Assembly: GCA_951406725.2 (NCBI GenBank)
Contig: OX597830.1
Coordinates: 62,124,001-62,188,000, forward strand
Length of the DNA stretch: 64,000 bases
Source: Octopus vulgaris
Taxonomy: Eukaryota
Direction of reading: 5' to 3'
Shown piece after piece: positions 1-19,833 of the stretch (positions are counted from its first letter, which is position 1; each line of letters starts with the position of its first letter). The notes beneath the pieces are model-generated. The model saw only the letters and a program-made list of their open reading frames with translations, made no database searches and was not told the origin of the DNA. Made by a program: the position numbers and the translations under genes.

Positions 1-598
1 TCTAGCTGTGACCATCCTGTCTTTTTCTTTTTAAGAACATTTAGGACCACATTATCTAACGTGTCCTTTATTTATAATAAGAGTGTGATTTTTCGGGAGA
101 TTTGACTGCTATTTCTAGCTGGTTGAGTGACTATATAGAGGCTCTCATTCATCACCATCATTTAACATCAGTTTTCTCTGCTGGCATGGGTTAGACAGTT
201 TAACTGAAGATAGTAAGCTTGAGCACCATTCAAGCATGGTTGATGCTAGTACCGCATGACTGGCCCTAGTGCTGGTGGCACATAAAAGGCACCATTCAAG
301 CATGGCTGATGCCAGTACAGCGTGACTGGCCCTAGTACTAGTGGCATGTTAAAAGCACCCACTACCCTCTGAGTGGTTGGTGTTAGGATGGGCATCTAGC
401 TGTAGAAACCTTGCCAGATCAGATTGGAGCCTGGTGCAGCCCTCAGTCAAACTGTCCAACCCATGCCAGTATGGAAAGTGGATGTTAAAACGATGACGAT
501 AATGCTGATGAAGAATCTGATGCTTAAGTAAAAGAAATTCCTTATTAGAAAATCAATCAGAAATTTTGGTCATTTAACGGAATTTTAATATTTTACAG

Positions 599-675
599 GG
601 ACGTCTCTGATGTTACAAAATGTCCCGAGATGTTGAAAGGTCGGGTGAAAACTCTCCATCCTGCCATACATGGTG
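599..675 (+). CDS. ATIC: ATIC exon ([25 protein letters not shown])
   Basis: ttttacag|g ... ggtg|gtaagt; 77 nt. Confidence 0.95.
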
Positions 676-3600
676 GTAAGTGGTCATTTATGTTAATGTT
701 GCTTAAGTGTGTGTCATTTTTTTCGCTTGTTTCAGTCACTGAGTAATGTTACAGGGATGCAAACAAACCTACACCAGTTGTTAATGGGTGTTAAGAAACA
801 AATGGCAAAAACCCATGCATGCATACATGTGTATACACGCTCACAGATAATGGGCTTCTTTTCAGTTTCCATCTACCAAATCCACTCACAAGGCATTTGT
901 ATAAGGCCCTTGCCCAAGGTACCACACAGTGGGACTGAACCCTTTCTGACAACATAGCCATGCCTGCACCTGTGATTGTGCATAAATTTTGTCATTAATG
1001 AAATTATTTTAGAATAAAAATAATTAGGTTTCTCAATTTATTTGCTATTGTTTTCAGATTTGACCAGATTATGGAATTGAGTTGGGTTTTCATCATCATC
1101 GTTTAACGTCCATTTTCCATGCTAGCATGTGGGTCTATAATCCCTAATCCTTTTCTTTATTATACTTCACCCAAAATCTTCACCCACCCCTTTTCTCATG
1201 TTCTTTTGGTTGCAGCAGGGTGACCTCACAAGTGCAGGACCCACAAAAACCTTCAACTCCTCCCACCAACAGTAACTATCCTCTTACTGTTCCCGCTACT
1301 ATATCCACACAAAGGGTGGCGAGCTGGCAGAATCGTTAGCACGGCAGGCGAAATGCGTAGCCGTATTTCGTCTGTCGTTACGTTCTGAGTTCAAATTCCG
1401 CCGAGGTCGACTTTGCATTTCATCCTTTCGGGGTCGATAAATTAAGTACCAGTTACGCACTGGGGTCGATATAATCAATTTAATCCGTTTGTCTGTCCTT
1501 GTTTGTCCCCTCTATGTTTAGCCCCTTGTGGGTAGTAAAGAAATATATGTCCACACATCAATAATTTTGTGTTCGCCCCCCACCCCCCTACTACATGATA
1601 ACAAATGTTGGTTTGTTTATTTCCCTGTAACTTAGTTTGGCAAAAAGAGACCAGTAGAATAACTAAGAACCTGAGTTTAATAAGTATTAAGGTTGAGTTC
1701 AACTGAAACCCTTCAGGGAGTGTGCCCCAACATGGCCACAGTTCAGTGAGTGAAACAATTAAAAGATGTAATAATAATTCTAATTAACATTTGCTTGCTT
1801 TGTATGTCAATGGTTGATTAGATGCTATTAACCGTTTACTCTCTCTCTCTCTCCCTCTTCCCCTCTCTCTCTCTCTCTCTTCTCTCTCTTTTCCTCTCTC
1901 CCTCTTCCTCTCTCCTCTTTTTCTCTCTTTTTCTCTTTTCTCTCTCTCTCTGTTGTTACCAGCAGTGACTTGTGGTGTTATTAAAGAAAGAATTTAACCT
2001 GCTTTCATTACTTTATTCTTTAATTTCCAGGAATTCTGGCCAAGCCAACCCCTGAAGATGTGAAAGAAGTTGAAGATCTTAACTTCAATTTGATCCGGTA
2101 TGTTTTTGTGTCATTGTCACTTTAATGGATTTTGTCTGTTGCTCTGAGGAAGCCATATTCTGTAGCCTGGTGGAATTATAGTGCAATGAACTCTAAGTGA
2201 TTTACTTGCTGGAGCCAGGAAAGTTTATACTCGCCAAAAGTATAAAACGATTGTAAGCCATGTTAGGTATTATTGTGTGGAATAGTTTTCTTTGCTCTCC
2301 TAGCCTGGGGGGTTCTCAACCATATTTTGTCTAAGGACTGCTTTGATTACTATTTGATCCTGCTGGACCTACTTAGACATTCAATGTATCATCATCATTG
2401 CTTAACGTCCGTCTTCCATGCAGGCATGGGTGGGATGGTTTGACAGAAGCCTGCACTAGACTTCTGCAACTGTTTTGACAGGATTTTTACAGCTGGATAC
2501 CCTATATAGAAAAAAAATCCTGTACTTTTATAATTATATATTACTAGGAATTGTATAAATTCTTTTCTACTCTAAGAATAAGGGCCAAAATTGGTACTTA
2601 ATTTATCAACCCCAAAAGGATGAAAGGCAAAGTCAACCTCAGCGGAAATTGAACTCAGAACAAAAAGACAGACAAAATACTGCTAAGCATTTTACCCAGC
2701 GTGCTAATGTTTCTGCCAAATCACCGCCTTAGGAATTACTCCCTTTTTACTTGTTTCAGTCATTTAACTGTGGCCATGCTGGAGCACCACCTGCAGTCGA
2801 GCAAATCGACCCCAGGACTTATTCTTTGTAAGCCTAGTACTTATTCTATCGGTGTCTTTTGCCGAACCGCTAAGTTACAGGGACGTAAACACACCAGCAT
2901 CGGTTGTCGAGCGATGTTGGGGGGGGGGCAAACATATACAAATTCTATATAAATTTTTTCAAAATATTTGTGTTGAAGAAATATAACCAATTTGTTGTTG
3001 ATAAATTTTAACATCAAAATCTTATTTGGGCACTCGAGAGTTGTGTGGACCTTAATTGAGAACCACTATCCCAACCCATGCTTCTGAACCTGAGGAACAG
3101 CATTCCCGTTCAAGGAAAATAAGTTTTAGAAGTAGGAGGCAAATATTATGGGGATGCTAAAAGCTTAGAGGCATGAGAATTTTTCTTAGAAATGAAATAT
3201 TTGATCCTTTAATAATTAACCCTTTCATTACCATATTTCTGTTGAGATGCTCTGTGTTTCTTTCAATTTTAAATATAACAAAGAATTTAGTAAAATAACT
3301 TAGTTTATCATTCAGCTAGTGTTAGGAACATAAATTGTGACCAAGGTTTGGTGGAAGATTTCAATTCAGAACTTTTGAAAGCAGGACATTTGTACTCAGA
3401 GCCAGAGCCAGTTTCAGCCGGGTTGGTATCGAAAGGGTTAACCCCAGCAATATCCAGCTTATTTCATCTACCTTATAATGTCATTCTAAAACAAGCAATC
3501 ACTGGAACGTCCAAGCTATAATACATGATTAATTCAAAACGATGTGAATGACTAAGCATTACGTTTGATGGAATAATTCGAATGCTAAAGGGTTAACCCA

Positions 3601-6600
3601 AATACGAGATTTATATTTTATGTGAATTTCTTAAATATTTTGTTTAGTATTACAATGTGATAAACTTTGTCATCATTTGAACAGAAACACAATTGGGGAT
3701 GTATTGACATCAAGTGTTATTTCATTATGTTAACCCTCCATAGAGGGCATTAGTTCACACAAGGATCTGAAGAAGCACATCTTTAGAACATTGTAAGGAT
3801 ATTTTTGGTAACAATTGCATCAGTTTTTTTTTCTCATGTTTTCAGTGTTATTTTCCTCTTTATGTTTCCAAATCTGTACATATGTATGTATCGAAATCGA
3901 TCAACATCAATGGAAATTGTAGCTGTGATACCAGTGCCGGTGGCACGTAAGAGTGCCATCCGAACGTGGCCGTTGCCAGCGCCGCCCCGGCTGGCTTCCG
4001 TGCCAGTGGCACGTAAAATGCACCATCCGATTGTGGCCATTGCCAGCCTCATCTGGCCCCTGTGCAGGTGGCACGTAAAAAGCACCCACTACACTCATGG
4101 AGTGGTTGGCGTTAGGAAGGGCATCCAGCTGTACAAACACTGCCAGATCAGACTGGGCCTGGTGCAGCCCTCTGGCTTCCCAGACCCCAGTTGCACCGTC
4201 CAACCCATGGAAAGCGGACGCTAAATGATGATGATGATGGTTCTACTATAATAATACTCTTGTGTTTTTCTCTGTCACAACATTTGAAAGAAAGAAAGGG
4301 GTGATGGCAAACTGGTAGTGGGAGCATTTCAACTCTGTGTAATGGAAGGGGGATGGTGAACATTCAATGCTGAAAAGAAAAATCAAACAGCGTTTCAACT
4401 CTGTAGTGTTCCTTCAGTTACAAATGATGATTGATGTCACATCTCAAAAGACAACCAATAGATAACATTGACAAGTGTATTAATTTGATTTACCATCCAT
4501 ATTTATATATAAAATACTACAATTAGCTGTCATTTTTTGATGGCACGGGGCCAGCTAGTATACATAATGTTTTATCTTTATTTTATTTTTTTCTTCCCTA
4601 GTGTTGTTGTCTGTAACCTGTATCCATTTGTGAAAACGGTTGCCTCAGACGATGTCACTGCTGAGCAGGCTGTGGAACAAATTGACATAGGTAAGACTTT
4701 GTATTTAACATACTAAAATCTGCTTTAAAATATCACAAAAATTAGGATGTTAATCAGTCTGATTGGCACAGGGGTCGGTAAAATTGCTAATGAGACACAC
4801 AAATGTTTTATGGTGTTTACATTGTCATGCTACATGTACCAGTAATATACTGTGATGGCTTGGTTACTTTAGGTTTTCTTATTTCTTTATTGCCCACAAG
4901 GGGCTAAACATAGAGGGGACAAACAAAGACAAAGGGATTAAGTTGATTACATCGACCCCAGTGCGTAACTGGTACTTAATTTATCGACCCCCAAAGGGAT
5001 GAAAGACAAAGTCGACCTTGGCGGATTTTGAACTCAGAACGGATGGTGACACGTAAAAGCACCATCCGTTCGTGGCCGTTTGCCAGCTCTGTCTGGCACC
5101 TGTGCAGGTGGCACGTTAAAAACACCCACTACACTCACGGAGTGGTTGGCGTTAAAAAGGGCATCCAGCCGTAGAAACACTGCCAGATCAGACTGGGCCT
5201 GATGAAGCCTTCCAGCTTCACAGACCCCAGTTGAACCGTCCAACCCATGCTAGCATGGAGAACGGATGCTAAATGATGATGATGATGATGATGATGAACA
5301 TAACAGCAGACGAAATACCGCTAAGCATTTCACCTGGTGTGCTACTTTAGGGTTTCTGTTGCCAGATAGCCTTCATGTCACTAACATTCCCTTGTTTTTA
5401 TTTCCCCATGGTCAGTTAGGTTTTCACAGAATATTGGAAATGGACACAGCTTGTTTCACAATTGTGATGCTAAGGCCAGCAGACACAGACAGGTGTGTGT
5501 GTGTGTGTTTAACATCTACTTTTTCATGCTTGCATGGGTCAGATGTCATTTGCTTCCCTTTCTGTTGCCAGTCCTCTTCAGTTTCCAAGCAAAATATTTT
5601 CTCACTGCCAGACATTTACAGAAGCTGGAAACAAAAAAACCTTGCCTGTATGATAATGTTAATTTGCAACTATTACATTATATTTAGACAAGGGTACACC
5701 ATGCTGGTGCCACGTGTATAAAGCACCCAGTACACTCTGTGAGGTGGTTGGCATTAGGAAGGGCATCCAAGCATAGAATCCACGCCCAAAACAAATGAAG
5801 TTTGGGCAGGTCTCCAGCTGACCAGCACCTGTCAAATTGTCCAACCCATGCCAAACATTATATGATGACCGTGTTTGTGTGTGTATGTGCATGCATGCAA
5901 TGAGCTTCTTTCAGTTTCCATTTACCAAATCTATTCACAAAGTTTTGGTCAACACGGCCCTCTAACAGAAGCCACTTACCCTAGGTGTCACACAGTGGAA
6001 CTGAACCAGAAACTCCACGGTTCTTAACCACACAGCCATCCTTCCTGTACCCATGTAATACCAGATAAAACGAATGTCACCATAAATTTGATCATTGAAT
6101 TACTTTGAACGCAAAGCCTCATTAGATCCCATGTCATTTAATAAGTTTAATCAGATGCTGCTTAATCCCTTAACTCAAATACACATGACAAAATTGAAAT
6201 CGATCAACATCAATGAAAATTGCAGCTGTGATACCAGTGCCGGTGGTATGTAAGAGAACCATCCGAACGTGGCTGTTGCCAGCGTCGTTCCAACTGGCCT
6301 CGTGCCGGTGGGATGTAAAAAGCACCATCCGATCGTGGCCGTTGCCAGCCTCGCCTGGTCCCTGTGCCGGTGGCACATAAAAAGCACCATCTGATCATGG
6401 CCGTTTGCCAGCATCATCTGGCACCTGTGCCGGTGGCACATAAAAAGCACCCACTACACTCATGGAGTGGTTGGCGTTAGGAAGGGCATCCAGCCGTAGA
6501 AATATTGCCAGATCAGACTGGGCCTGGTGCAGCCTTCTGGCTTCCCAGACCCCAGTTGAACCGTCCAACCCATGCTAGCATGGAAAGTGGACGCTAAACA

Positions 6601-9600
6601 ATGATGATGATGATAATGAATTATGACATTAATTAACGCTTCCTTCCTTTCTCTCCAGGTGGCGTTACTCTCCTCCGTGCTGCTGCAAAGAACTTTGCAC
6701 GTGTTACTGTCATTTGTGACCCTAATGACTATAATGGGTAATGTAGCAATATTAATATAAAATTCTATATTATATAAGTAAATACTTGATGAAGGATTTT
6801 GCACAGTTACATGAGAACCTGTTTCCAAAATGATCCTCTAGTTGCCATGATTTTAAAATTTCGTTTGTATTGATTATAGTTGTTAAGAAGTAAATATATG
6901 GAGTATATTATTGCTGTTGTTAAATATATTATTAGTGTTATGAAGTGTATTAAAGAGTAAAGATTGTTTGCCATCATAACCTGGCAGTCCTGGTTTAGGA
7001 CTAATGTTGCTGTAATTTAGCCCCAGGAGGCATCGTCTCCAGCTGGCTAAACCAGGACTGCCATGTTATGTTGGGAAACAATCTTTACTACAAGGTACTG
7101 TTGCTGAATATCTCACATGAGATTTAAAAATAGTAATTTTGTATTAATGAGGTCCTGACTATTCAGCCAAACAAGTGAAATAGTGAATAGAAAAACTTAG
7201 TAAAGTTTTACTTTGCTGTAAAGACAGAACTCTTCATCGGAAAGAAATGAAATGTTTAATACACTAATGCGTCAATATTCAAGTTTAATTTGTTCCCAGA
7301 GACTGCTTGTAAAGCAGAGCAATAATTTCCCATGATAACAATGATATAAATCGTATTTTGGTCCCAGAAAAATATTTTACTTATAAAATTTATAGTACTT
7401 GTAAATAAATGGCAATAAAACAACAGTAGAATGTAAAGAATATCTTGTGTAAAGCAAAAAGAATGTCAAGATCATTCATAATAAAAAAATATTATAATTA
7501 GAATTGTTTTTTGAATCACATTCCCTTGCACTAGGCTCGTGCACACCATCGCTTGTAGATGCAATTGCCGACTCACAAACATCTGTTGATTTCTTTTTGA
7601 TAAACAATTCTAAAGTTGCTTGCTTAGCTTTTTTCTTTTGCTCTCTATAAATTTCTCGGTAACATGCAGAAGCATTTGTTATGGTTGTAGAAACTCTTGC
7701 ACTTCGTTCGAAATTTGGATCTTGTGCTTGAAAAATTTCCAAGGCTTTATCCAAATGTTGAAACGCTTCCTTGAGTCCTTTAAATGTGAATGCATTAACT
7801 GGCGCTTCTTCAACAGTGTCCTTCTCTTCTATCGTTTCCTGTTCTTGCATTGCAATGAGGTCTTCGTTGGTGAGTTCATCACTATGTGATTGAAGCAGCT
7901 CATCAATATCGCTTGCCGACACATTGAAATTCAATTCATTTGCCAGTTTTACAATTTCTTCTATCTCTTTTTCTACATTTTCTTGTAGTGATTCAAAACC
8001 CTCAAAATCATTAAGAAATTGAGGGCAAAGTTTTTTCCAAATGCCCTTCATATTCTTTTGACTGATATTATCCCAAGCTTTACCTATGATTTTCACTGCA
8101 GTGTAAATATTGTGACTCTTCCAGAATTCCATTAGAGTCGGTCCCCCTTCTTTGACCGTTTCTTCGTTCAACATTGCAAATGTGAGACGTAAATAATGGG
8201 CCTTAAAAGCTGCAATAACCCCCTGGTCCATTGGTTGCAAAAGTGGGGTTGTATTTGGAGGCAAAAAAATAACTTTGACATTAGGATGAAGATGTTTCAG
8301 AATTGGAGGGTGGCTGGGTGCATTGCCAATAAGTAACATTGCATGAAATGGAAGTTGGTTCTTATCGCAATATTCCTTGACTTCCGGCACAAAGTGATAT
8401 GAAAACCATTCTTCAAATAATGTTGCTGTAACCCAAGCTTTTTTATTAGATTTCCATATAACTGGAAGGGTACTTTTTAAGATGCCTTTAAGTGCCCTAG
8501 GGTTCTCCGCTCGATAAACTAGCATTGGTTTCAATTTCAAATCCCCGGATGCATTTCCTCCAAATAATAACGTCACTCGATCTTTTGCAACTTTAAAACC
8601 AGGCCGCGCAGATTCTTCCTTCGCTATGTAACTTCTGGAAGGCATACGTTTCCAGAAAAGTCCGGTTTCATCGACATTAAAGATTAGTTGTGGCACGTAA
8701 CCCCCTTCTTTAATCATTTCTGCCAATGTTTCTGGGAATTTTTCTGCTGCGTCGACATCAGCGCTTAACACTCCTCCTTGCACTTTGATGGAATGCCACC
8801 TGTGGCGATTTTTAAATCGCTCAAACCATCCTCTGCTCGCGACAAAAGTTTCGTTTGTGTCACCTTTCATTTCTTTAAGCATAGTGAAAAGGGACAAAGC
8901 TTTGCTACGAATCGCCGCTCGGTTGACATTCAAATGCATGCGTTGAGTTGTGTCACCTATCCATACATTTAAAAGTTTTTCCATTTCCGGAATAATGCTT
9001 CCAGAATCTCTTTTACGAGACCACGTTGAGTACAAAAGCTGCGCATTTCTCACTTGAGATAAATATTTTTGTTTTTCTTTGAGAATTGTGCAGACAGTTG
9101 AGGAATTAAGTGAAAATTTGTCACTAATGTTCTTCACAGTTGTACCACCATCGTGCATTTTTACAATTTCATACTTCGTTTCCAAAGTGATCGCTTTTCG
9201 TTTCTTTTTCTTCCCGTCGGTGTCCGTTGTACACTTTCGTTTAAGCATATTGGCTGGGCTTAAAAAATGCCGAAAATAATAGTGTAAATAAACGCATACA
9301 ATATAAATATGTGGTACAAAGAATTAGCTTATAATCAAACTGGGGCACCGGACCGTTAATCCATTAATTAACGAAGTTAACATTTTCGCTAACGATTTAA
9401 CTTTTAAGTTAATTCTGGAAATCATTATCGGACTAATTGACTTTCGTTGACTCATGTTAACTTCTGTTGAATTGAAGCTAACGGATTTTATAGTTTTGCC
9501 ACTTTTTAAAGGTGTTTGTAGGTCGTTTTAGAGCCAAAACTCATATTTTTTTTTTCTATAATGGAAATTAACGTTGACGGTTTATCGATAACTTCCGTTA

Positions 9601-12600
9601 CATTGCGAAATAATTAACTGATTAACGGTTATGGAACTTAACTTTTTGGTTAACCGATTAATGATTAATGAAGTTAACTTTCCGATCAACGGTGGGTACG
9701 AGTATCGTAGACTGGTACCCAACGGTGTCCACCTTTGCTTATAATTAATCTCTCAACAATCGCACGCACCGACTCTGAAATTTTAGGCCGTCGTTAACTC
9801 TGTAGTTATTATATGCAGCTGTTAAGACTCGTCAGAACCAGTTTTGCCACACATACACACACACAAAATGGTTAATTAACCTTTTTTATATTTATAAAAT
9901 AAAACTCGTAAACCTGGGGTCTCGTAAAGCGGGTCCTCGTGAAGTGAGGTATTACTGTGCTTCCATAGAATAAGAGAATAAAATAAATTGTGATAGAGAA
10001 AACAATGGCAGGGGAGATAACAAACGAAAATATGTTTTAGGGAGATTATCTCCCTTTCCTTATTTTCGTCCGTATTCCGTTCACTTTGGCTCGGAAGCAT
10101 TTCGGTTCTTTACAACCAAGTGTCGAACCCGTTGTGCGTGCATGTGTGTCTGTGCACGCACGCACACACATATACGCCCGGAAGAACTTTGGGAAAGGCT
10201 TCCGCCCTGTTTTTTTTTTGGGGGGGGGGGACAAAAGGAACTCTTGCCGAACTTTGGATCCCAACCATGTTTCGGTTTCAATCTGACAGTGGTACCTCGG
10301 GCAAGTGGCCTCTATTATAGCCTCGGGTTGACCAAGGCCTTGAGTGGATTTGGTAGATGAAAACTGGATTAAGGTTTAATCTAACACCCGGCCACCAAAG
10401 CAAAAAAAACAAAAAAACAAAACAAGAGTAATAAGTGTAAAAAAAATGTATTAAACAAATATGAAAATAAAAAGTTGTGCTAACGAACTGGAGTGGGGTG
10501 GGACTTTCGGAAAATTCACAAGATCCGATTTTTTCCTTTATAACTTTTAAGAAAATTTTTTTTGATGAAATATTATATAAATATATTTCAAACGGCATAG
10601 ATTACGATTATAAAGAAATTTGTGAGGGAAAATTTTTTTCTGGGGGAGAGGATTTTCGAAGACAAAGCGATTTTTTTTTTTTCACTGCTTGAGTGTAATA
10701 GGAAAAAGTTCGAAAATTTTTTTACATTAATTTATTTTACGTTTGAGTAATAGAAAATTGTTTTGAAAAAGATCCCATGTATCATGATGAGAGAAACAAA
10801 TTCATAAATACGGTGTTAAATATGGTTTCACTATGGAAAAAAGTTAAAGGCGATTTAGCTGTTGTTTTTAGCACGTTTCCACTGCTAGGCAAGAAGAGCT
10901 GTGTTGAAATGATTTTCTGTATAAAAAAAATATATGCGCCTACGTACCCCTCAGAAAAAAAATTTTCAGCCATAAACTTCCTTATAATCGTTATCCATGC
11001 CGTTTGAAAGGTAGTTATATAAAATTTCATTAAAAGATATCCATTTTCCTAAAAGTTATGGAGGGAAAAATTGGATCGTATAAATTTTTTGAAAGTCCTC
11101 TCCTTACCCTCTCAGAAAATAATTTCCTCCGCAAATTTCTTTATAATTGTAAAAGTTATAAAGGGAAAAATTGGATCTTGTGAATTTTCCAAAAGTCCTC
11201 TCCCATCCATTTTGTTAACGCAAATTTTTGTTTTCATATTCGTTTAATACACATTTTTTTACACCTATTACGCTTTTCGCCCCGTTTCGTGTCCGTTGCC
11301 AGCCTTGCCTGGCTCTCGTGCCGGTGGCACATAAAAAGCACCATCCGTTCGTGGCCGTTTGCCAGCTCTGTCTGGCACCAGTGCGGGTGGCACGTAAAAA
11401 GCACCCACTACACTCACGGAGTGGTTGGCGTTAGGAAGGGCATCCAGCCGTAGAAACACTGCCAGATTTGACTGGGCCTGATGAAGCCTTCTGGCTTCAC
11501 AGACCCCAGTAGAACCGTCCAACCCATGCTAGCATGGAAAGCGGACGCTAAACGATGATGATGATGATGTTAAAGTAAACTCTCTTTACTCTTTTATTTG
11601 TTTGTTTACTTGGCCATGCTGGAGCACCACCTTTAATCAAGGATCTCGACCCCGGGACTTATTCTTTTGTAAGCCCAGTACTTATTCTATCGGTCTGTTT
11701 TGCCGAACCGCTAAGTAACGGGTACATAAACACACCAGCATCGGTTGTCAAGCAATGCTAGGGGGACAAACAGACACGCAAACATATACACACACACACA
11801 CATATATATACATATATACGACGGGCTTCTTTCAGTTTCCGTCTACCAAATCCACTCACAAGGCTTTGGTTGGCCCGAGGCTATAGTAGAAGACACTTGC
11901 CCAAGATGCTATGCAGTGGGACTGAACCCGTAACCATGTGGTTGGTAAACAAGCTACTTACCACACAGCCACTCCTGCGCCTACAATAACTGTAAACTGA
12001 AAGAAGCCTATTGTGTGTGTGTTACAGCTTCCTTGCCTTGTTATCGCATGATAGCTGTAAACAAGCCTCACTGTTATGCAGGCGGTGTCTCTTGTTTTCT
12101 TCTAGTCTTCTGAGACCTGTCTTGTCATGGAGAAACATTACTTCGAAACAGGTGGGGATTGACAACAGGTAGGGCTTCTGATTATAGAAAAACTGCCTCT
12201 ACAAATTCTGCACGACCCGTGCTAGCATTGAAAAGTGGACATTCAAACAGGGATGCTGATTCTATCTCAACACTTTTAGGTACTCGATTACTCTTCAATA
12301 TTTAACCATTCCAGTATAAGGCAGCAAGCTGGCAGAATCATTAGCACACTGGACAAAGTGCTTAGCAGCATTTTCAACTTTTGGGGAGGTGGAGTTAACA
12401 AAACATGGACCAGTTGACCTCTATCCCCATCCCCCAAAATTTCTGGCCTTGTTCCAAAATTTAAGCCCAATATTTTACCATTCAAACAGAGTGTCTGTTG
12501 CCAAAAGTTAAGGACAATTGTTTCAGAGATAAGAACTCTGTGCTCCTTTAAAAATGCGCTACTTAGCTCGGTATTCACAACTGGATTGCACTTTTATCTT

Positions 12601-12902
12601 TTAGCTGAGGTGTTGATGTTAGATTATCCTAGTTTGTTTCCCCAGTTTCTCTTTGTGTCTTTGGTTCCTCCCTGAAATACATGCCCAGACCTGGTTGTGT
12701 GGTTAGGAAGCTTGCTTCCCAACCATGCGATATTGGGTTCAACCCCACTGAACAGAACTCTGGGTCAGTATCTTCTGCTGTATCTCTGGGTTGAATAAAG
12801 CCTTTTGAGTGGATTTTGGTAGGTGGAAACTGAAAGAAGTCTGTCATGTGTCTGTCTATATGGGTTCTTTATGTGTGTGGGTGTGTAATATAATATATAT
12901 AC

Positions 12903-12940
<38 letters not shown>

Positions 12941-15900
12941 GGCAAAATGTCTATGTGTGTGTGTCCTTTATACAAATCCACAATTTTTCAGTTAGAGGGC
13001 TCGCACTTTCTATGGTCATTCAAAACCGTCCAAGGGTGGTCGTGCACATCTTTACATTTCCCCAGTCACCCCGCAAAGCCATTAAAAAATCAATAAAGTG
13101 ACTTTTTTGTGAATTTTCTATACAAAACCCAATCAAAATGCCCGAAACTTGATACGCCAATTGAATGCCAGCTAACTGTATGTGATTGGTCGGAGATTTG
13201 GACAGTACTCGCGTGTATGTGCGCACGCACGCAGCTGTATATGCATGCACTAGCACTATGACCCGGCAACACCGGGTCACAGTGCTGGTATATGTATATA
13301 TGCATAAAATTTCACACCCAACTTGTGCCAGCATGGGAAATGGACTTTAGATAATGATTTTGCATATCATGTCTGTCTGTGGGAAATATCATCTACCATC
13401 TTGCTTAGAAACAGGTGAGGCTTGACAACAGAAAGGCACTTGACCATATTAAATTTACCTAAAACAAGATCCATCTGATGCATGCAAGCATGAAAAAGTG
13501 GATGTTAAAACAACAATGATGCTGGTAAAACCTTGAGAGCAGTAAGACAAATAGAACTGAACTAACAATGAATTATTGTTCCTTAGATTTTTTTTTTTTT
13601 AATCCTTTTCCAGAATAATTGAAGAAATGAAGAACTCTCCAACTAAAGATTCAACCCTTGAAACCAGAAAAAGACTTGCTGTGAAGGTGAGACATTCCTC
13701 CTTTATTCTTTTAGTTGTTTCAATCATTTGACTGCGGCCATGCTGGAGTATCGTCTTTCGTCGAGTAAATCAATCCCAGGATTTATTCTTTGTAAGCCTA
13801 GTACTTGCTCTATCGGTCTCTCTTGCCGAACCACTAAGTGACGGAGGCGTAAACACACCACCATCGGTTGTCAAGCGATATTGGAAGGACAAACACCGAC
13901 ACACAAACATATACACACACACATATATATATCGACAGGCTATTTTCAGTTTCCGTCTACCAAATCCACTCACAAGGCTTTGGTCAGCCCAAGGCTATAG
14001 TAGAAGACACTTGCTACTTACCACACAGCCACTCCTGCACCTGTTGGCGTTTATTTAAAGATGTTGCTAGGTTTAAGTATTTCGTTTCCCAAACTTGTGG
14101 TTTCAGGTTCAGTCCTACAGCATGGTACTTTGGGCAGAGTGTATTCTGCTGCACTCCTGCACTGACCAAAGCCTTCAACAAAATACTTCATTTTATATAG
14201 CTCTGCGATCACTTCACCTGATGCATGGTACACAATGCAACCATTCAGACAATGTCACTTTTGATGGACAGAGTGACCTAACATGTGGCACAAACATTTG
14301 ACCACAAATCACAGGTCATTCAGCAAAAGCTGATCGCTCGTACATTGTCTTCGACAGGAGAGTCCATCATGAGTGTGTGTGGATGTGTGTCTGGACATCT
14401 TCATTATGATGCAATCAATGTCATTCATTCCCAGTCTTCCATGAAAGGCATGTCCAGCTGTGGAAATTATTACCTTGCTTGGAAACATGTGAGGGTTGAC
14501 AACTGAAAGGCCCATCGAAGTGTTGAAAATCTGCCACAACAACTTTCACCTGATTCTTATTTCTTTATTGCCCACAAGGGGCCAAACATAGAGGAGACCA
14601 ACAAGGACAGACAAAGGGATTAAGTCGATTACATCGACCCTAGTGTGTAACTGGTACTTAATTTATCAACCCCCGAAAGGATGAAAGGTAAAGTTGACCT
14701 CGGCGGAATTTGAACTCGGAACACAAAGACAGAGAAAATACTGCAAAGCATTTCACCCGGCTTGCTTACGTTTCTGCCAGCTCACCACCTTTCACCTGAC
14801 TCTTGCAAGCATGAAAAAGTGGGCATGAAATGATGCAGATGTTCCTAAATTTTATGCATGCCTTCTTTATTTGCAGGCTTTCAACCATACAGCAGATTAC
14901 GATGCTGCTATTTCTGATTACTTCCGGAAGCAGTTTAGCCAGAATGTTTCCCACTTACCCCTGCGCTATGGTATGAACCCTCATCAGAAACCAGCACAGC
15001 TCTTTACCAATTTGTCAGAATTACCTTTGAAAGGTAAATGTTCTTCAATCTATCCAAAAACCTGTTTCAGTTGGTGATTCTCTCTTGAAGATTTCAGTCT
15101 CAATTCTAAAATAACATGGCAAGGCTATCCCTGCCATCATTGCACTTAAGTTCTACGCTCCCTGTAGAGCATATGCCATTAGCTTTTCTCTACTGTTCTT
15201 GACTCTGAGTTGTTGGGAGCCACACCCTCAGTATGTGGGAGTCCCTGAGAGAGTGATCCTTCCTCTCCCAGGTTTTGGTTTTGATTTATCTTCGATGCTC
15301 CTCTACCTTTGCCTTTTTACTAATTACAGGTATTCATCTTATGCAAATGCAATTTATCACTTCAAAAGGGTGGTCTCTCTTAGACTGGCCTCTGTTTTTT
15401 TACCTGTCCTGTATGGGAGACCCTACTAGGAGCTGACACTCTGCTGGCATGTATCTCAGGTATTATTTGGCCATACAAGCCACAACATCACAACAAGCAC
15501 TGGTAGGGATGTTGGCTGTATGTAAACTCATTTTTACCTCTGGAAAGGGATGGGCCATATTAGCATGGCTTACAGGCCCACCACACCACAGCAAGGACTT
15601 GTCCTTGTGGTCAGCCCACCGTCATCATCACTACCCTCTAAACCCCCTGAATTAGTGTTTGGGAATCTAGGACTCTAATTATAAATAAAATATTCTAATC
15701 TTGTGTAGGATACTCATTACAGGTGGTATTATGTAGACACCCACAAACTCTTCCTTCACCCCAATTATTTTCTACAGGTCATTCAGCCTACAAGGAATAA
15801 CTGAAGCCCTTTCAATTCTTCTATCTAGAAATGTCTCCTTTTTATTTCAGTTGATTTAAGAAATAATAAAGAAAATAGTGATTTTGTTGTTAAGCTCATT

Positions 15901-18900
15901 TTAGAAATTTTACCTGTGCTGGTGGCACGTAAAAAGCACCAACCGATCGTGGCCGCTGCTAGACTCCCCTGGCACCTGTGCCGGTGGCATGTAAAAAGCA
16001 CCCACTACACTCATGGAGTGGTTGGCTTTAGGAAGGTCATCCAGCCATAGAAACACTGCCAGATCAGACTGGAGCCTGGTGCAGCCTTCCTGGCTTCCCA
16101 GATCTCCGGTCGAACCATCCAACCCATGCTATCATGGAAAATGGACGTTAAACAATGATGATGATGATGAGAACGGAGAGGTGGGTTGTTATCAAAATGG
16201 TTCGATTACATCTTTTCTAAAAGATATGAATAAAATGACACACATTGGATAATACAGTCCTAGATACATTGTGCCTGAATAATAAACAGGAGAATCATGA
16301 ATAGATTGTCTTTGGTGGTAGATTTGCATTCCTAAGACTGATTTGGTGATAAATTTAGGATCTGGAATTAATGGAGTTTCTTTTTGTTGCAGTTGTAAAT
16401 GGCTCCCCTGGATTTATCAATCTCTGTGATGCTTTAAATGCTTGGCAATTGGTGAAAGAACTGAAAAATGCTCTTGGTTTGCCAGCAGCAACCTCGTTTA
16501 AACATGTCAGCCCTGCAGGTATGATCTTTGGCTCTACTTAGAATTTGCTCAATAATAGCTGTGCGTGTGTGTGTATGTATTCATTTTTATCTTGTGTTAA
16601 CATTGAAAAAATTGTAAAAGCATTTCATTATTCAAGCAGAGTCCCTCATTTGCAGTCTTCCCTGTAAACTAAACATATCTGATCAAGTATATTATTTACA
16701 TTTGATGGATATTTGTCCTCGTCTTGTTTGTTGTTAACACGTTTCGGCTAATATACCCTCCAGCCTTTGTCAGGTGTCTTGGGGAAATTTCGAACCTGGG
16801 TTCTCATTCCAAAGGTATTTTTCGATGTTGTTGCTGCTGCTGTTGTTCAAGTCACTGCCTGGAATTGAACTCGGAATATTGGGGTTAGTAGCCCACATTC
16901 TTAACCACCATACCATATGTCCATCAGCCGAAACGTTGTGTTAACAACAAACAAAATGAGGACAAATATCTGTCACAAGTTAATAATGTATACAATTCCT
17001 CATCTCTTAAATATAGAACTGTATTATGTGTGATCTAGGACAAATATTATCTTCCTTGGGAACAGATGAACGCTGGCAATAGAAAAGGCATTTAGCCGTA
17101 GGAAATCTGCTTCAACAAATTCCATCTGACCAATACAAAGATGGAAAAGTGAATGTTAAAATGAAAAAGAGAAGACAAAAAAAACAGAAGCCATATGTCT
17201 GTGTTGTAAAATGCCTTCCTTGTCTTCAGAAAGTTTATTGAATTTCAAGGACTGAAATTTTCTTTGTAATAAATACAGTGTAACCTAAGGAGGGTTCAGT
17301 TCTCACCAAATCAAGTCTCCAGGTTCCATATCAGTTCCTGACTGTTCTATTGATATCATTATTGATCCTAAAGAGAAGGCATGATGATCATCCCTTCCCA
17401 ATTCTTCTGAAACCTCTAATCTGTGAAATTTCTTTCGGAGTTTTATATTCTTCTGAAGGACTCTCATAATGCTTCTCTAAGCAGGATCTTCTGTCTTATG
17501 AAGATCTTGTGTAGAAGAACCACGAGATCTAAACATGTAAGAATCCATTATACCCAAATGATTGTGTTTTGGTCTTCTTCTTTTTTTCTTTTTCTTCTTC
17601 AATGTTGTTTGTCTATTTTATCCTCAGGTGCTGCAGTAGCCACACCCCTCAGTCCAGAACAGGCTCAACTGTGTATGGTAGATGATCTGAAGGAACTGAG
17701 TCCCCTTGCTGTTGCTTATGCAAGGGCCCGTGGTGAGTATATTAAACAAGCCCTGATATATTATATCAGGGAAATCCAAACTCTTGTAGAAGGGCCCCAT
17801 GTATATTTATGTTCAAGGGCTACAAGACATGTTTATGTCTTGTTGTTCTTCAGGGGTTATAGGTTTAAAATTAGGAGTAAGAAAAGACAACTCTGCATGA
17901 AGGTTGGTACATAATTCAGTTTCTTTCAACAAATTTTATTCAACAAAATCAATAACATCATCATCATCATCATCATTTAGCGTCCGTTTTCCATGCTAGC
18001 ATGGGTTGGACGGTTTAACTGGGGTCTGTGAAGCCGGAAGGCTTCATCAGGCCCAGTCAGATTTGGCAGTGTTTCTACGGCTGGATGCCCTTCCTAACAC
18101 CAACCACTCCGTGAGTGTAGTGGGTGTTTTTTATGTGCCACCTGCACAGGTGCCAGACAGAGCTGGCACAACGGCCACGAACGGATGGTGCTTTCACTTG
18201 TCAAAAAACTTTAAATGATTATTCTGGAGCATATTCACCATCTACTTCAATTACTGCTCCCATTTGCTTGGCAGACTGTCAGGCCATCATTTAAAGATGT
18301 TTTTGTTGAATAAAATTTATAGAAAAAAATTCGCAGTAATTCTGCACCAACCGAATAGTTTTGCAGGCTGAACTAGATTGGTTAATCTCTACTTATTGAA
18401 GGTCTTTGACTTTGTTGAGTCTGAATTTTCACAGCTAATTCTTTGAAATCTGGCTGGTGTGATATGAAAGCCATTTCCAAGTAATGTAGTTCTGCAAAGA
18501 CATTCATTGGGTTTCTTTTAGTTCCCATCTACCAAATCTACTCACAAGGTTTTGGTCAGCCCAGGGCTATAGTAGAAGGCACTTGTCCAAGGTACCTTGC
18601 AGTGGGATTGAACCCAAAGCCATGTGACTGGGAAACACACTTAACTATACTGCCATTTTACTATAATAGAAAAAATTCTATTCAACACATACTTCGGGCA
18701 TGAAGTTAAGATGCTGAGTATTTAATCACATGATTAGGAGTTCAAGCCAACCTATCTCAATTTGCCAATCTGATCTTCTTAATTCATTGAACTGTTAACA
18801 ACAACAGGAGTCGTAGGTGAATTTCCAATGTTTCCTTCTCCTGCACAAATCACTGTGACCAATCCTTCGTCAGATCTTCCTACTCTCCCACTGGAATCTT

Positions 18901-19833
18901 CTCCCTGCAGGGGTTGCCCAGCAACAGCTTAAACAAAATGTAAACAGCCTCAAGTTTACCAATCTTAAAGGGTCAGCAAGTGCCATGGGCCCTGCCCCTG
19001 TCTTCCACACACAGCAACTTAAGAATAAATAATTCTGTTTGATTTCTCCAACCAAATTCTAACTTTGATTCCGTTTACGTTCTTTATAGGAGCTGACCGC
19101 ATGTCATCATTTGGGGACTTCATTGCCCTTTCTGAACCCTGTGATGTCCCAACAGCTAAAGTCATATCAAGAGAGGTATTTGCGTCTTTTTTTTTTTTTT
19201 TTTTGTTTTTTTTTTGTGTGTGTGTGGAATGACTTTAAAACAGGAATTCTAATTTAAAAAACCACCCTTTAAAATTTTTTTGCACCCCCTCACCCTCTTT
19301 TCAGCTACGGAGAGTACAAATCAGCAAAACAAATTGGCAAAAGTCTGCATTTTTAAATTACCCCCCACCCCCATTTTTAAGAATTGTTTTTTTTTCTAAA
19401 TATGCGAGAAAATTGGACATTATGATTCAGACAAAAATTTCAAAACATTTGGGGGGAAAAGTCAAAATTGAAGGAAGGTGGGTAACGATGCTGATTTTTG
19501 GCAATTTTGTACATACTTAAATCTATACGTATATATGCATATGTCGGCACAGGATGTCACAAAAGTGCCAAACAAAATAGTACGAAGCACAACTATTCTT
19601 TTGAACAATGAAAGACTCAAATGGAAAACAAAGCAAACAACATAATGAAGGGACCCTTCATCAGTTGTTGGCTGTTTTTCTAGTCTCATATTTCAAGTAT
19701 TTAACAACAATATACGCTTTCAATAAAACATTTGGCCCTGCAAAGCAAATTAAATAAAATTGGGGATTTTGCCGAGGGTCAAAATAGGTAACATAAACAG
19801 GACAGTGAAAACAAATATGTGTGTGTGTGTAGG

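What the first reader, a model, noticed from the sequence alone, without database searches (positions are those of the whole stretch)
7476..9248. Probable domesticated, catalytically dead Tigger transposase gene nested antisense in ATIC
Seen: a 590-codon intact ORF in a window where every other transposase is shredded. The second catalytic Asp is Gly (LLIGNAPSH; codon GGC at 8327-8325, one change from GAC), while the HTH DNA-binding region looks intact. The TIRs match only ~14/22, and a hAT MITE with diverged TIRs sits in the leader, so the insertion is old. Known: pogo transposases were repeatedly domesticated (CENP-B, JRK, TIGD genes), often losing DDD residues. Inference: a lineage-specific CENP-B/TIGD-like DNA-binding protein under purifying selection.
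Basis: partly seen in the sequence, partly recalled or inferred. Interest (0 to 1): 0.7.

Follow-up and report, generated by a model that had tools for sequence, protein, structure and literature searches.

The report
Tamed Tigger transposase inside octopus ATIC
An old jumping gene sitting backwards in an intron of an octopus purine-synthesis gene has kept an intact, conserved protein-coding frame while its sister copies decayed, and has lost one of three catalytic residues, so it is likely a young host gene for a DNA-binding protein that is predicted to no longer cut DNA; such tamed pogo/Tigger genes are a known kind.

Summary
Observation confirmed. A 590-codon Tigger (pogo) transposase ORF lies antisense in ATIC intron 6738-13613, inside a 2.7-kb element (7262-9957). 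Its second catalytic Asp is Gly. The family is old: no near-identical copy was found, and 7 full-length sister copies carry 14-23 stops or frameshifts each. This ORF is under purifying selection. dN/dS against the family consensus is 0.19-0.28 (dead copies 0.7-1.2), about 0.3-0.37 on its own branch. It departs at 3 of 156 conserved residues, against 283 of 1474 in dead copies. RNA-type runs cover it; strand and level are not shown. Against: one DNA run holds a frameshift allele at codon 51, no orthologous protein was found in other octopuses, and function is untested. Its nearest sister copy is a separate insertion shared with O. bimaculoides that lost a different catalytic Asp. Verdict: probably a young, catalytically impaired domesticated Tigger gene, a new member of the TIGD/JRK/CENP-B kind. 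The scan had not noted this sequence before, but it noted other tamed transposases in this genome.

The parts
7262..9957 (-). Full-length Tigger (pogo superfamily) DNA transposon copy
   Evidence: TIR positions in family copies; genome search
7476..9248 (-). Intact 590-codon transposase-derived ORF under purifying selection; two in-frame deletions (3 nt near 7823, 12 nt near 7589) and a 1-nt insertion four codons before the stop
9054..9209 (-). First HTH (CENP-B_N-like, aa 14-65)
   Evidence: Pfam E 3.5e-4, below cut-off; match to CENP-B 1HLV
8799..8990 (-). Second HTH (HTH_Tnp_Tc5, aa 87-150)
8037..8585 (-). DDE_1 catalytic-fold domain (aa 222-404)
   Evidence: AF2 model pLDDT 86.6; weak Foldseek matches to Mos1/SETMAR
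8670..8672 (-). First catalytic Asp, D193, kept
8325..8327 (-). Second catalytic position is Gly (D308G); no variant listed at this codon in the six RNA-type runs whose listed contigs span it
8226..8228 (-). Third catalytic Asp, D341, kept
9936..9957 (-). 5' TIR (1 change from the family 5' consensus); flanking TA target site reads CA at 9958-9959
7262..7283 (+). 3' TIR (5 changes from the family 3' consensus, including the third base); TA at 7260-7261
9336..9737 (.). Nested MITE (probably hAT) in the leader; 8-bp TSD at 9328-9335 and 9738-9745; 6.7% from its family consensus at non-CpG sites; absent from the loci of the sister copies checked
   Evidence: (16 of 19 sister loci compared)
9959..10205 (-). 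Single-copy host DNA just upstream of the 5' TIR, in a CpG-rich patch of a CpG-poor gene: candidate promoter (inferred)
   Evidence: one match in the genome; CpG o/e 0.9-1.7 at 8500-11500, against 0.2-0.7 per kb over most of window 1-19000
7284..7289 (-). ATTAAA on the minus strand, made by a 1-nt insertion private to this copy: candidate poly(A) signal (inferred)
   Evidence: contigs of X1 and X2 (one study) end at 7269
9097..9098 (.). Site of a 1-nt deletion allele (frameshift at codon 51) in one contig of DNA run X4
   Evidence: none of 12 sister copies has a gap there, and all differ at 5 or more of 65 nt
6659..6737 (+). ATIC exon upstream of the host intron (intron 6738-13613)

Best explanation
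A Tigger transposon copy sits antisense in an ATIC intron with its whole transposase frame conserved, and was likely adopted by the host as a single-exon gene for a DNA-binding protein that is predicted to no longer cut DNA. Shown: the insertion, the decay of the sister copies, the constraint on both HTH domains and on the DDE fold, D308G, and cover by RNA-type runs. Inferred: transcription on the minus strand from single-copy, CpG-rich host DNA next to the 5' TIR, ending near a newly made ATTAAA. Also inferred: translation, and binding of the paired HTHs to the family's own TIR sequence (216 exact matches genome-wide), with the dead DDE domain kept as a fold or dimer scaffold. The protein would then act as a regulator or repressor at those sites, as TIGD/JRK-type genes are thought to. 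The binding target and regulatory role are the weakest step (about 0.4 on their own).
For: (1) Old family: best other copy 84% over 1.9 kb, none near-identical among 40 of 1929 candidates scored. Seven full-length dead copies carry 14-23 lesions each (mean 18); neutral survival of an intact frame is 6.5e-7 at 6% divergence. (2) dN/dS against the leave-one-out consensus is 0.19-0.28, pooled dead copies 0.72-1.21, Fisher p about 1e-10. After the split from sister L002: 29 synonymous and 33 nonsynonymous changes, against 145/572 in dead copies (p 9e-6) and 77/240 in the CpG-retaining dead copies (ratio 0.37, p 6e-4). (3) Departs at 3 of 156 columns conserved across 93 homologs, dead copies at 283 of 1474 (p 3e-10): 0 of 29 in the DNA-binding part, 1 of 77 in the DDE domain, namely D308G. 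(4) Long residence: 7 changes in 48 TIR and TSD bases; nested MITE 6.7% and 3' non-coding part 7.0% from consensus, like dead copies. (5) Present-day variation: in long contigs 5 synonymous and 2 nonsynonymous differences (p about 0.01). In two DNA runs, 2 differences in 1393 ORF bases against 21 in 2395 non-coding bases (p 0.004; hand count of listed contigs). (6) Contigs of 6 RNA-type runs from 5 studies cover most of the ORF; 4 of them also hold spliced ATIC joins, so they contain mRNA.
Against: One contig (depth 17.6) of DNA run X4 has a frameshift at codon 51: probably a segregating null allele in 1 of 8 runs laid. No orthologous protein (90% or more identical) from any octopus in three homolog searches or the exact look-up, although the sister copy is annotated in O. 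bimaculoides and O. sinensis. Synonymous divergence (0.15-0.20) is about twice that of the element's own non-coding parts (0.03-0.07), with an AT-to-GC excess (24 vs 8), so part of the low dN/dS may predate insertion. With non-coding DNA as the yardstick the ratio is only about 0.6 (p 0.05). In aa 1-155 the raw N:S ratio is neutral-like (9:3), although no conserved column is hit. The leader carries 9 upstream ATGs. Strand, level, protein and binding are not shown.
Confidence: 0.7

Rival explanations
1. Once useful, now dispensable: the copy was under host selection for a long time (for example as a dominant-negative repressor while the family was mobile) and is now drifting towards a pseudogene, as its sister L002 has done in this lineage.
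For: Frameshift allele in X4. The sister L002 is constrained (dN/dS 0.34-0.49) yet frameshifted near codon 106 here and intact in O. bimaculoides. The family shows no young copies.
Against: Present-day differences are still mostly synonymous and sparser in the ORF than in its flanks. Only 3 of 156 conserved residues are changed.
Confidence: 0.15
2. Never domesticated: this is the last, late-inserted copy of an autonomous sub-lineage. Its constraint was earned while it was still jumping, D308G is a recent accident, and the frame has not yet had time to break.
For: Excess synonymous divergence over non-coding divergence. It forms a separate clade with L002 (95% bootstrap). TIRs and one TSD are still recognisable, so it fails the 'no TIR' filter of PMC7386202 and PMC4231638. 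Constraint is strongest in the DDE domain.
Against: Seven changes in 48 TIR/TSD bases, including a terminal base, are too many for a recent insertion (p 5e-4 at 3% divergence). The nested MITE is as diverged as the dead Tigger copies and is absent from the 16 sister loci checked. Even at 2.5% divergence an intact frame has P 0.002. Present-day variation is skewed to synonymous changes.
Confidence: 0.1
3. The RNA cover is ATIC-sense intronic RNA, or the locus works in cis as an antisense promoter that tunes ATIC, and the protein is not the selected product.
For: Contigs show no strand. A plus-strand AATAAA lies at 9977, 14 nt before the X1 contig end at 9991. X3 has a low-depth contig running from the exon into the intron.
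Against: It cannot explain codon-level constraint on the minus-strand frame. No contig joins the ATIC exon to the element.
Confidence: 0.05

Closest known systems
Vertebrate Tigger-derived genes TIGD2-7, JRK, JRKL, CENPB (PMC7386202, passages read)
   Same: Same CENP-B_N + HTH_Tnp_Tc5 + DDE_1 layout from a whole transposase; DDE fold kept while the triad is partly lost; Ka/Ks below 1 (JRK 0.21, TIGD5 0.18, TIGD2 0.09 in their table).
   Different: Independent origin from an octopus Tigger family. TIRs and hundreds of related elements are still visible. No broad orthology shown. No added domain.
O. bimaculoides XP_014781176 / LOC106876935, listed as a TE-derived HTH-Psq factor (PMC10027918, supplementary table rows read)
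   Same: Same Tigger family, 81% identical protein, nearest sister lineage; it also lacks a catalytic Asp.
   Different: It is the ortholog of the other insertion (L002, G000:C21:40.75 Mb): 23 derived residues shared with L002 only against 5 with this copy only, and its cDNA 5' end matches the L002 flank (compared by eye). It lost the first Asp (D193S), not the second.
Drosophila obscura-group LOC26532114, a recent Tc1/mariner domestication (PMC13548663, abstract and sections 10 and 17 read)
   Same: Lineage-restricted, mild constraint, lost catalytic triad, intact HTH, expression by borrowing host regulatory DNA.
   Different: Tc1/mariner, not pogo; its DDE domain is fragmentary and it has a 5' UTR intron and shown synteny, whereas here the full fold is kept, no intron is seen and synteny is untested.
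Tigger DNA transposons (PMC9219625, passages read)
   Same: About 2.3 kb without the MITE, one ORF, TIRs of about 22 bp, TA target site.
   Different: Incomplete triad, decayed 3' TIR, no young copies: not a working transposon.

Membership tests
Tigger/pogo transposon (origin) | CENP-B_N + HTH_Tnp_Tc5 + DDE_1 domains | tested here: met
   (CENP-B_N just under cut-off); top homologs named Tigger-derived
Tigger/pogo transposon (origin) | Short TIRs and TA target-site duplication | tested here: met
   22-bp TIRs; TA on one side, CA on the other; TA in several sister copies
Active Tigger transposase | Complete DDD triad | tested here: not met
   D193, G308, D341
Active Tigger transposase | Young, near-identical copies | tested here: not met
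   best other copy 84% (40 of 1929 candidates scored)
Domesticated transposase gene (six criteria as given in PMC4231638) | No TIRs flanking the gene | tested here: not met
   both TIRs still recognisable, the 3' one decayed; expected for a young event
Domesticated transposase gene (six criteria as given in PMC4231638) | Sequence and domain similarity to a transposase | tested here: met
Domesticated transposase gene (six criteria as given in PMC4231638) | Intact frame under functional constraint | tested here: met
   one frameshift allele
Domesticated transposase gene (six criteria as given in PMC4231638) | Conserved synteny in related species | tested here: inconclusive
   no relative genomes offered; one run of a second organism label covers parts of it (X20); no orthologous protein found
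Domesticated transposase gene (six criteria as given in PMC4231638) | Expressed | tested here: inconclusive
   covered by contigs of 6 RNA-type runs, 4 with spliced ATIC joins; strand and level not shown
Domesticated transposase gene (six criteria as given in PMC4231638) | Biological function in vivo | not testable with these tools
   needs knock-out or knock-down
CENP-B proper | Centromere binding and C-terminal dimerisation domain | tested here: inconclusive
   no CENP-B dimerisation Pfam hit; similarity to 1HLV only over the DNA-binding domain; localisation untested; not filed as CENP-B

The most novel reading that the evidence does not exclude
Domestication caught twice in one small transposon clade. 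Two separate insertions of the same Tigger sub-lineage (this one and L002) were each kept as expressed genes, and each lost a different catalytic Asp. The host would have recruited disarmed transposases to occupy the family's several hundred TIRs. One twin has since been lost in this lineage and the other carries a segregating null allele, which gives a natural experiment on the first steps and the reversibility of domestication.
Probability: 0.25. Interest if true: 0.62.

Novelty: new member of a known kind. Interest (0 to 1): 0.42.

Why it matters
Pogo domestication is common and already reported in octopus, so the kind is not new. This case is useful because it is young: the parent family, its TIRs and matched dead copies are all still readable, so the selection test has an internal control and the likely binding site is predictable. 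It adds an apparently unannotated nested gene. With its twin, it would allow a test of whether loss of catalysis is selected early and whether such genes persist.

Tried and rejected
Orthologs: three homolog searches (near, shorter, longer) and an exact look-up found no ortholog. The two octopus hits first looked like orthologs, but they belong to the C21 copy. Run search: no RNA holder listed on record; 'RNA' is a guess, supported only by spliced ATIC joins in X1, X3, X12 and X20. Uncovered flanks in RNA-type runs (for example 6747-7254 in X1) are not counted as evidence: contigs show presence, not absence. The shared end at 7269 comes from one study, and the upper ends differ (9991, 9960), so the transcript limits are a weak hint only. 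Read variants at 9087-9210, 7963-8005 and 7686-7706 (including a stop at codon 515) were dropped from polymorphism counts because 22 of 23 match L002. Two mixed contigs (records 11 and 14) were dropped from the ORF versus flank count, and 1062 pieces were not shown. Three T>C differences seen only in RNA-type runs could be A-to-I editing of a minus-strand RNA or SNPs; they could not be separated. Foldseek gave only weak matches (best E 4e-4, Mos1) and did not map the triad; triad identity rests on homolog conservation. Literature searches: octopus+pogo+domesticated+transposase, octopus+tigger+transposase+expressed and ATIC+octopus+transposase (0 papers) listed nothing on this locus; subscription papers are not covered. 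The O. bimaculoides cDNA in the supplement is cut short, so no cross-species dN/dS was computed for L002. No complex prediction was run.

Full report
Observation. The ORF is as described: 7476-9248, minus strand, 590 codons. It has two HTH domains and a DDE_1 domain, and its DNA-binding part matches CENP-B 1HLV. Position 308 is Gly; 111 of 120 homologs have Asp there, and D193 and D341 are kept. The host gene is ATIC on the plus strand. Spliced contigs join exon 6659-6737 to exons at 4674 and 13614, so the element lies in intron 6738-13613. The organism is an octopus very close to O. sinensis: the sister copy's protein is 99% identical to an O. sinensis RefSeq protein.

Anatomy. The element spans 7262-9957. 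The family has two slightly different TIR types (216 exact matches of a joint pattern, 0 for the reversed control). Against its own consensus the 5' TIR has 1 change and the 3' TIR has 5, and one TA reads CA. A 402-bp MITE with an 8-bp TSD sits in the leader. It is 6.7% from its family consensus at non-CpG sites and is not in the 16 sister loci compared. Upstream of the 5' TIR lies single-copy DNA in a CpG-rich patch of a CpG-poor gene. In the ORF, ancestral CpGs are kept at 17 of 20 sites in the first 1200 nt but at 5 of 14 in the last third. That pattern fits an unmethylated promoter at the 5' end (inference).

Family age. The genome search gave 70 matches from 40 of 1929 candidates; the best long match other than self is 84%. 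Seven full-length dead copies carry 14-23 stops and frameshifts. This copy has none in aa 1-586; its own indels are 3 and 12 nt in frame and 1 nt four codons before the stop. Neutral survival of the frame is 6.5e-7 at 6% divergence and 2.4e-3 at 2.5%.

Selection. Against a leave-one-out consensus of 19 sister loci, dN/dS is 0.19-0.28 under four settings; pooled dead copies give 0.72-1.21. A tree of the 14 longer copies is star-like except that this copy pairs with L002 (95%). On its own branch it has 29 synonymous and 33 nonsynonymous changes outside CpG codons. The ratio is 0.29 against all dead copies (p 9e-6) and 0.37 against the five CpG-retaining ones (p 6e-4). At columns at least 80% conserved in 93 homologs it departs at 3 of 156 (E159G, D308G, L441F, read from the listed departures), dead copies at 283 of 1474; the DNA-binding part has 0 of 29 and the DDE domain 1 of 77. 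The whole protein is therefore conserved except for the catalytic Asp. Caveat: its synonymous divergence is about twice that of its non-coding parts and is AT-to-GC biased, so some constraint may predate insertion. The most cautious ratio is about 0.6. TIR decay and the nested MITE argue for long residence.

Present-day variation and RNA. Twenty of 24 listed runs hold half or more of the words; none is on record as RNA. Six RNA-type and two DNA runs were laid. The six RNA-type runs (5 studies) cover most of the ORF, four contain spliced ATIC, and none joins ATIC to the element. X1 contigs run from 7269 to 9991. A private 1-nt insertion makes ATTAAA on the minus strand 15-20 nt before 7269, but a plus-strand AATAAA at 9977 exists too, so strand is inferred, not shown. 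Long contigs show 5 synonymous and 2 nonsynonymous differences from G000; with short contigs 7 and 2. Two DNA runs show 2 differences in 1393 ORF bases and 21 in 2395 non-coding bases (hand count). Against this, X4 has one contig with a 1-nt deletion at 9098 (codon 51) that matches none of 12 sister copies. It is probably a null allele.

The twin. L002 (G000:C21:40.75 Mb) is a separate insertion with its own TIR, TA and flank. It is constrained (dN/dS 0.34-0.49), and its variants appear in the same RNA-type runs (22 of 23 match). It is frameshifted near codon 106 here but intact in O. bimaculoides as XP_014781176. The cDNA start of that gene in the supplement of PMC10027918 matches the L002 flank (by eye). 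So the family was active before the split from O. bimaculoides, given as about 34 My in PMC10700109 (passages). The L002 lineage lost D193; this copy lost D308. Whether this copy's own insertion predates that split is untested. No orthologous protein was found.

Mechanism. Most likely this is a single-exon antisense gene using host DNA beside the 5' TIR as promoter. It would make a protein whose paired HTHs bind the family's TIRs and whose DDE fold is kept without catalysis (confident AF2 model; weak matches to Mos1 and SETMAR). That loss of one Asp of the metal-binding triad abolishes cutting is established knowledge (recalled), not tested here. Binding and regulatory role are inferred.

Comparison. 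It works like the vertebrate TIGD/JRK genes (PMC7386202, passages). Of the six domestication criteria given in PMC4231638 (passages and section 4) it meets two, fails the no-TIR one, and leaves three open. Pogo domestication in Octopus is already reported (PMC10027918, passages and supplement rows), and this genome has four other long stop-free Tigger-like ORFs. Three literature searches and the scan's sequence look-up found nothing on this locus.

Verdict. Probably a real, young, catalytically impaired domesticated Tigger gene (0.7). New member of a known kind. Interest 0.42.

Noticed in passing
L002 = G000:C21:40746896-40751816 (ORF in L060 2483-4113): Sister Tigger insertion shared with O. 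bimaculoides (LOC106876935). Constrained and covered by RNA-type reads; D193S and D308N; 2-nt insertion near codon 106 here, leaving a 106-aa HTH frame and a 444-aa downstream frame; O. sinensis XP_029648908 starts after the break.
   Followed up: partly
L003-L016: Dead copies fall into two classes: CpG-depleted (o/e 0.15-0.28, 7 copies) and CpG-retaining (0.76-0.97, 5 copies). The CpG-retaining class has more non-CpG substitutions per codon (0.21 vs 0.15), which fits mosaic methylation with a lower non-CpG mutation rate in methylated regions.
   Followed up: partly
L031 = G000:C23:19218471-19222619: Stop-free 609-aa Tigger-like ORF with all three catalytic Asp kept (36% to P0001); copy number not checked.
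   Followed up: no
L028 and L030 (G000:C21:3.30 Mb and 23.03 Mb); L024 (G000:C13:73.94 Mb): Other long intact Tigger-like ORFs with degenerate triads. L028 and L030 look like a near-identical pair whose N-terminus matches O. bimaculoides LOC106867769 (by eye).
   Followed up: no
window 9720-9753: 34-bp deletion in DNA run X4 removing the MITE's right TIR and TSD; the window's MITE also has an extra stretch of about 33 bp near this end relative to sister MITEs.
   Followed up: no
window 8069, 9078, 9201: T>C differences seen only in RNA-type runs; they would be A>G on the minus strand, so possibly A-to-I editing, or SNPs.
   Followed up: no
window 6956-7089 and 10424-11275: Two further inverted-repeat elements in the same intron: a 134-bp hairpin with very high read depth and an element of about 850 bp with long arms.
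   Followed up: no
L060 8632-9645 (-): 337-aa C2H2 zinc-finger array ORF about 4.5 kb from the sister copy.
   Followed up: no
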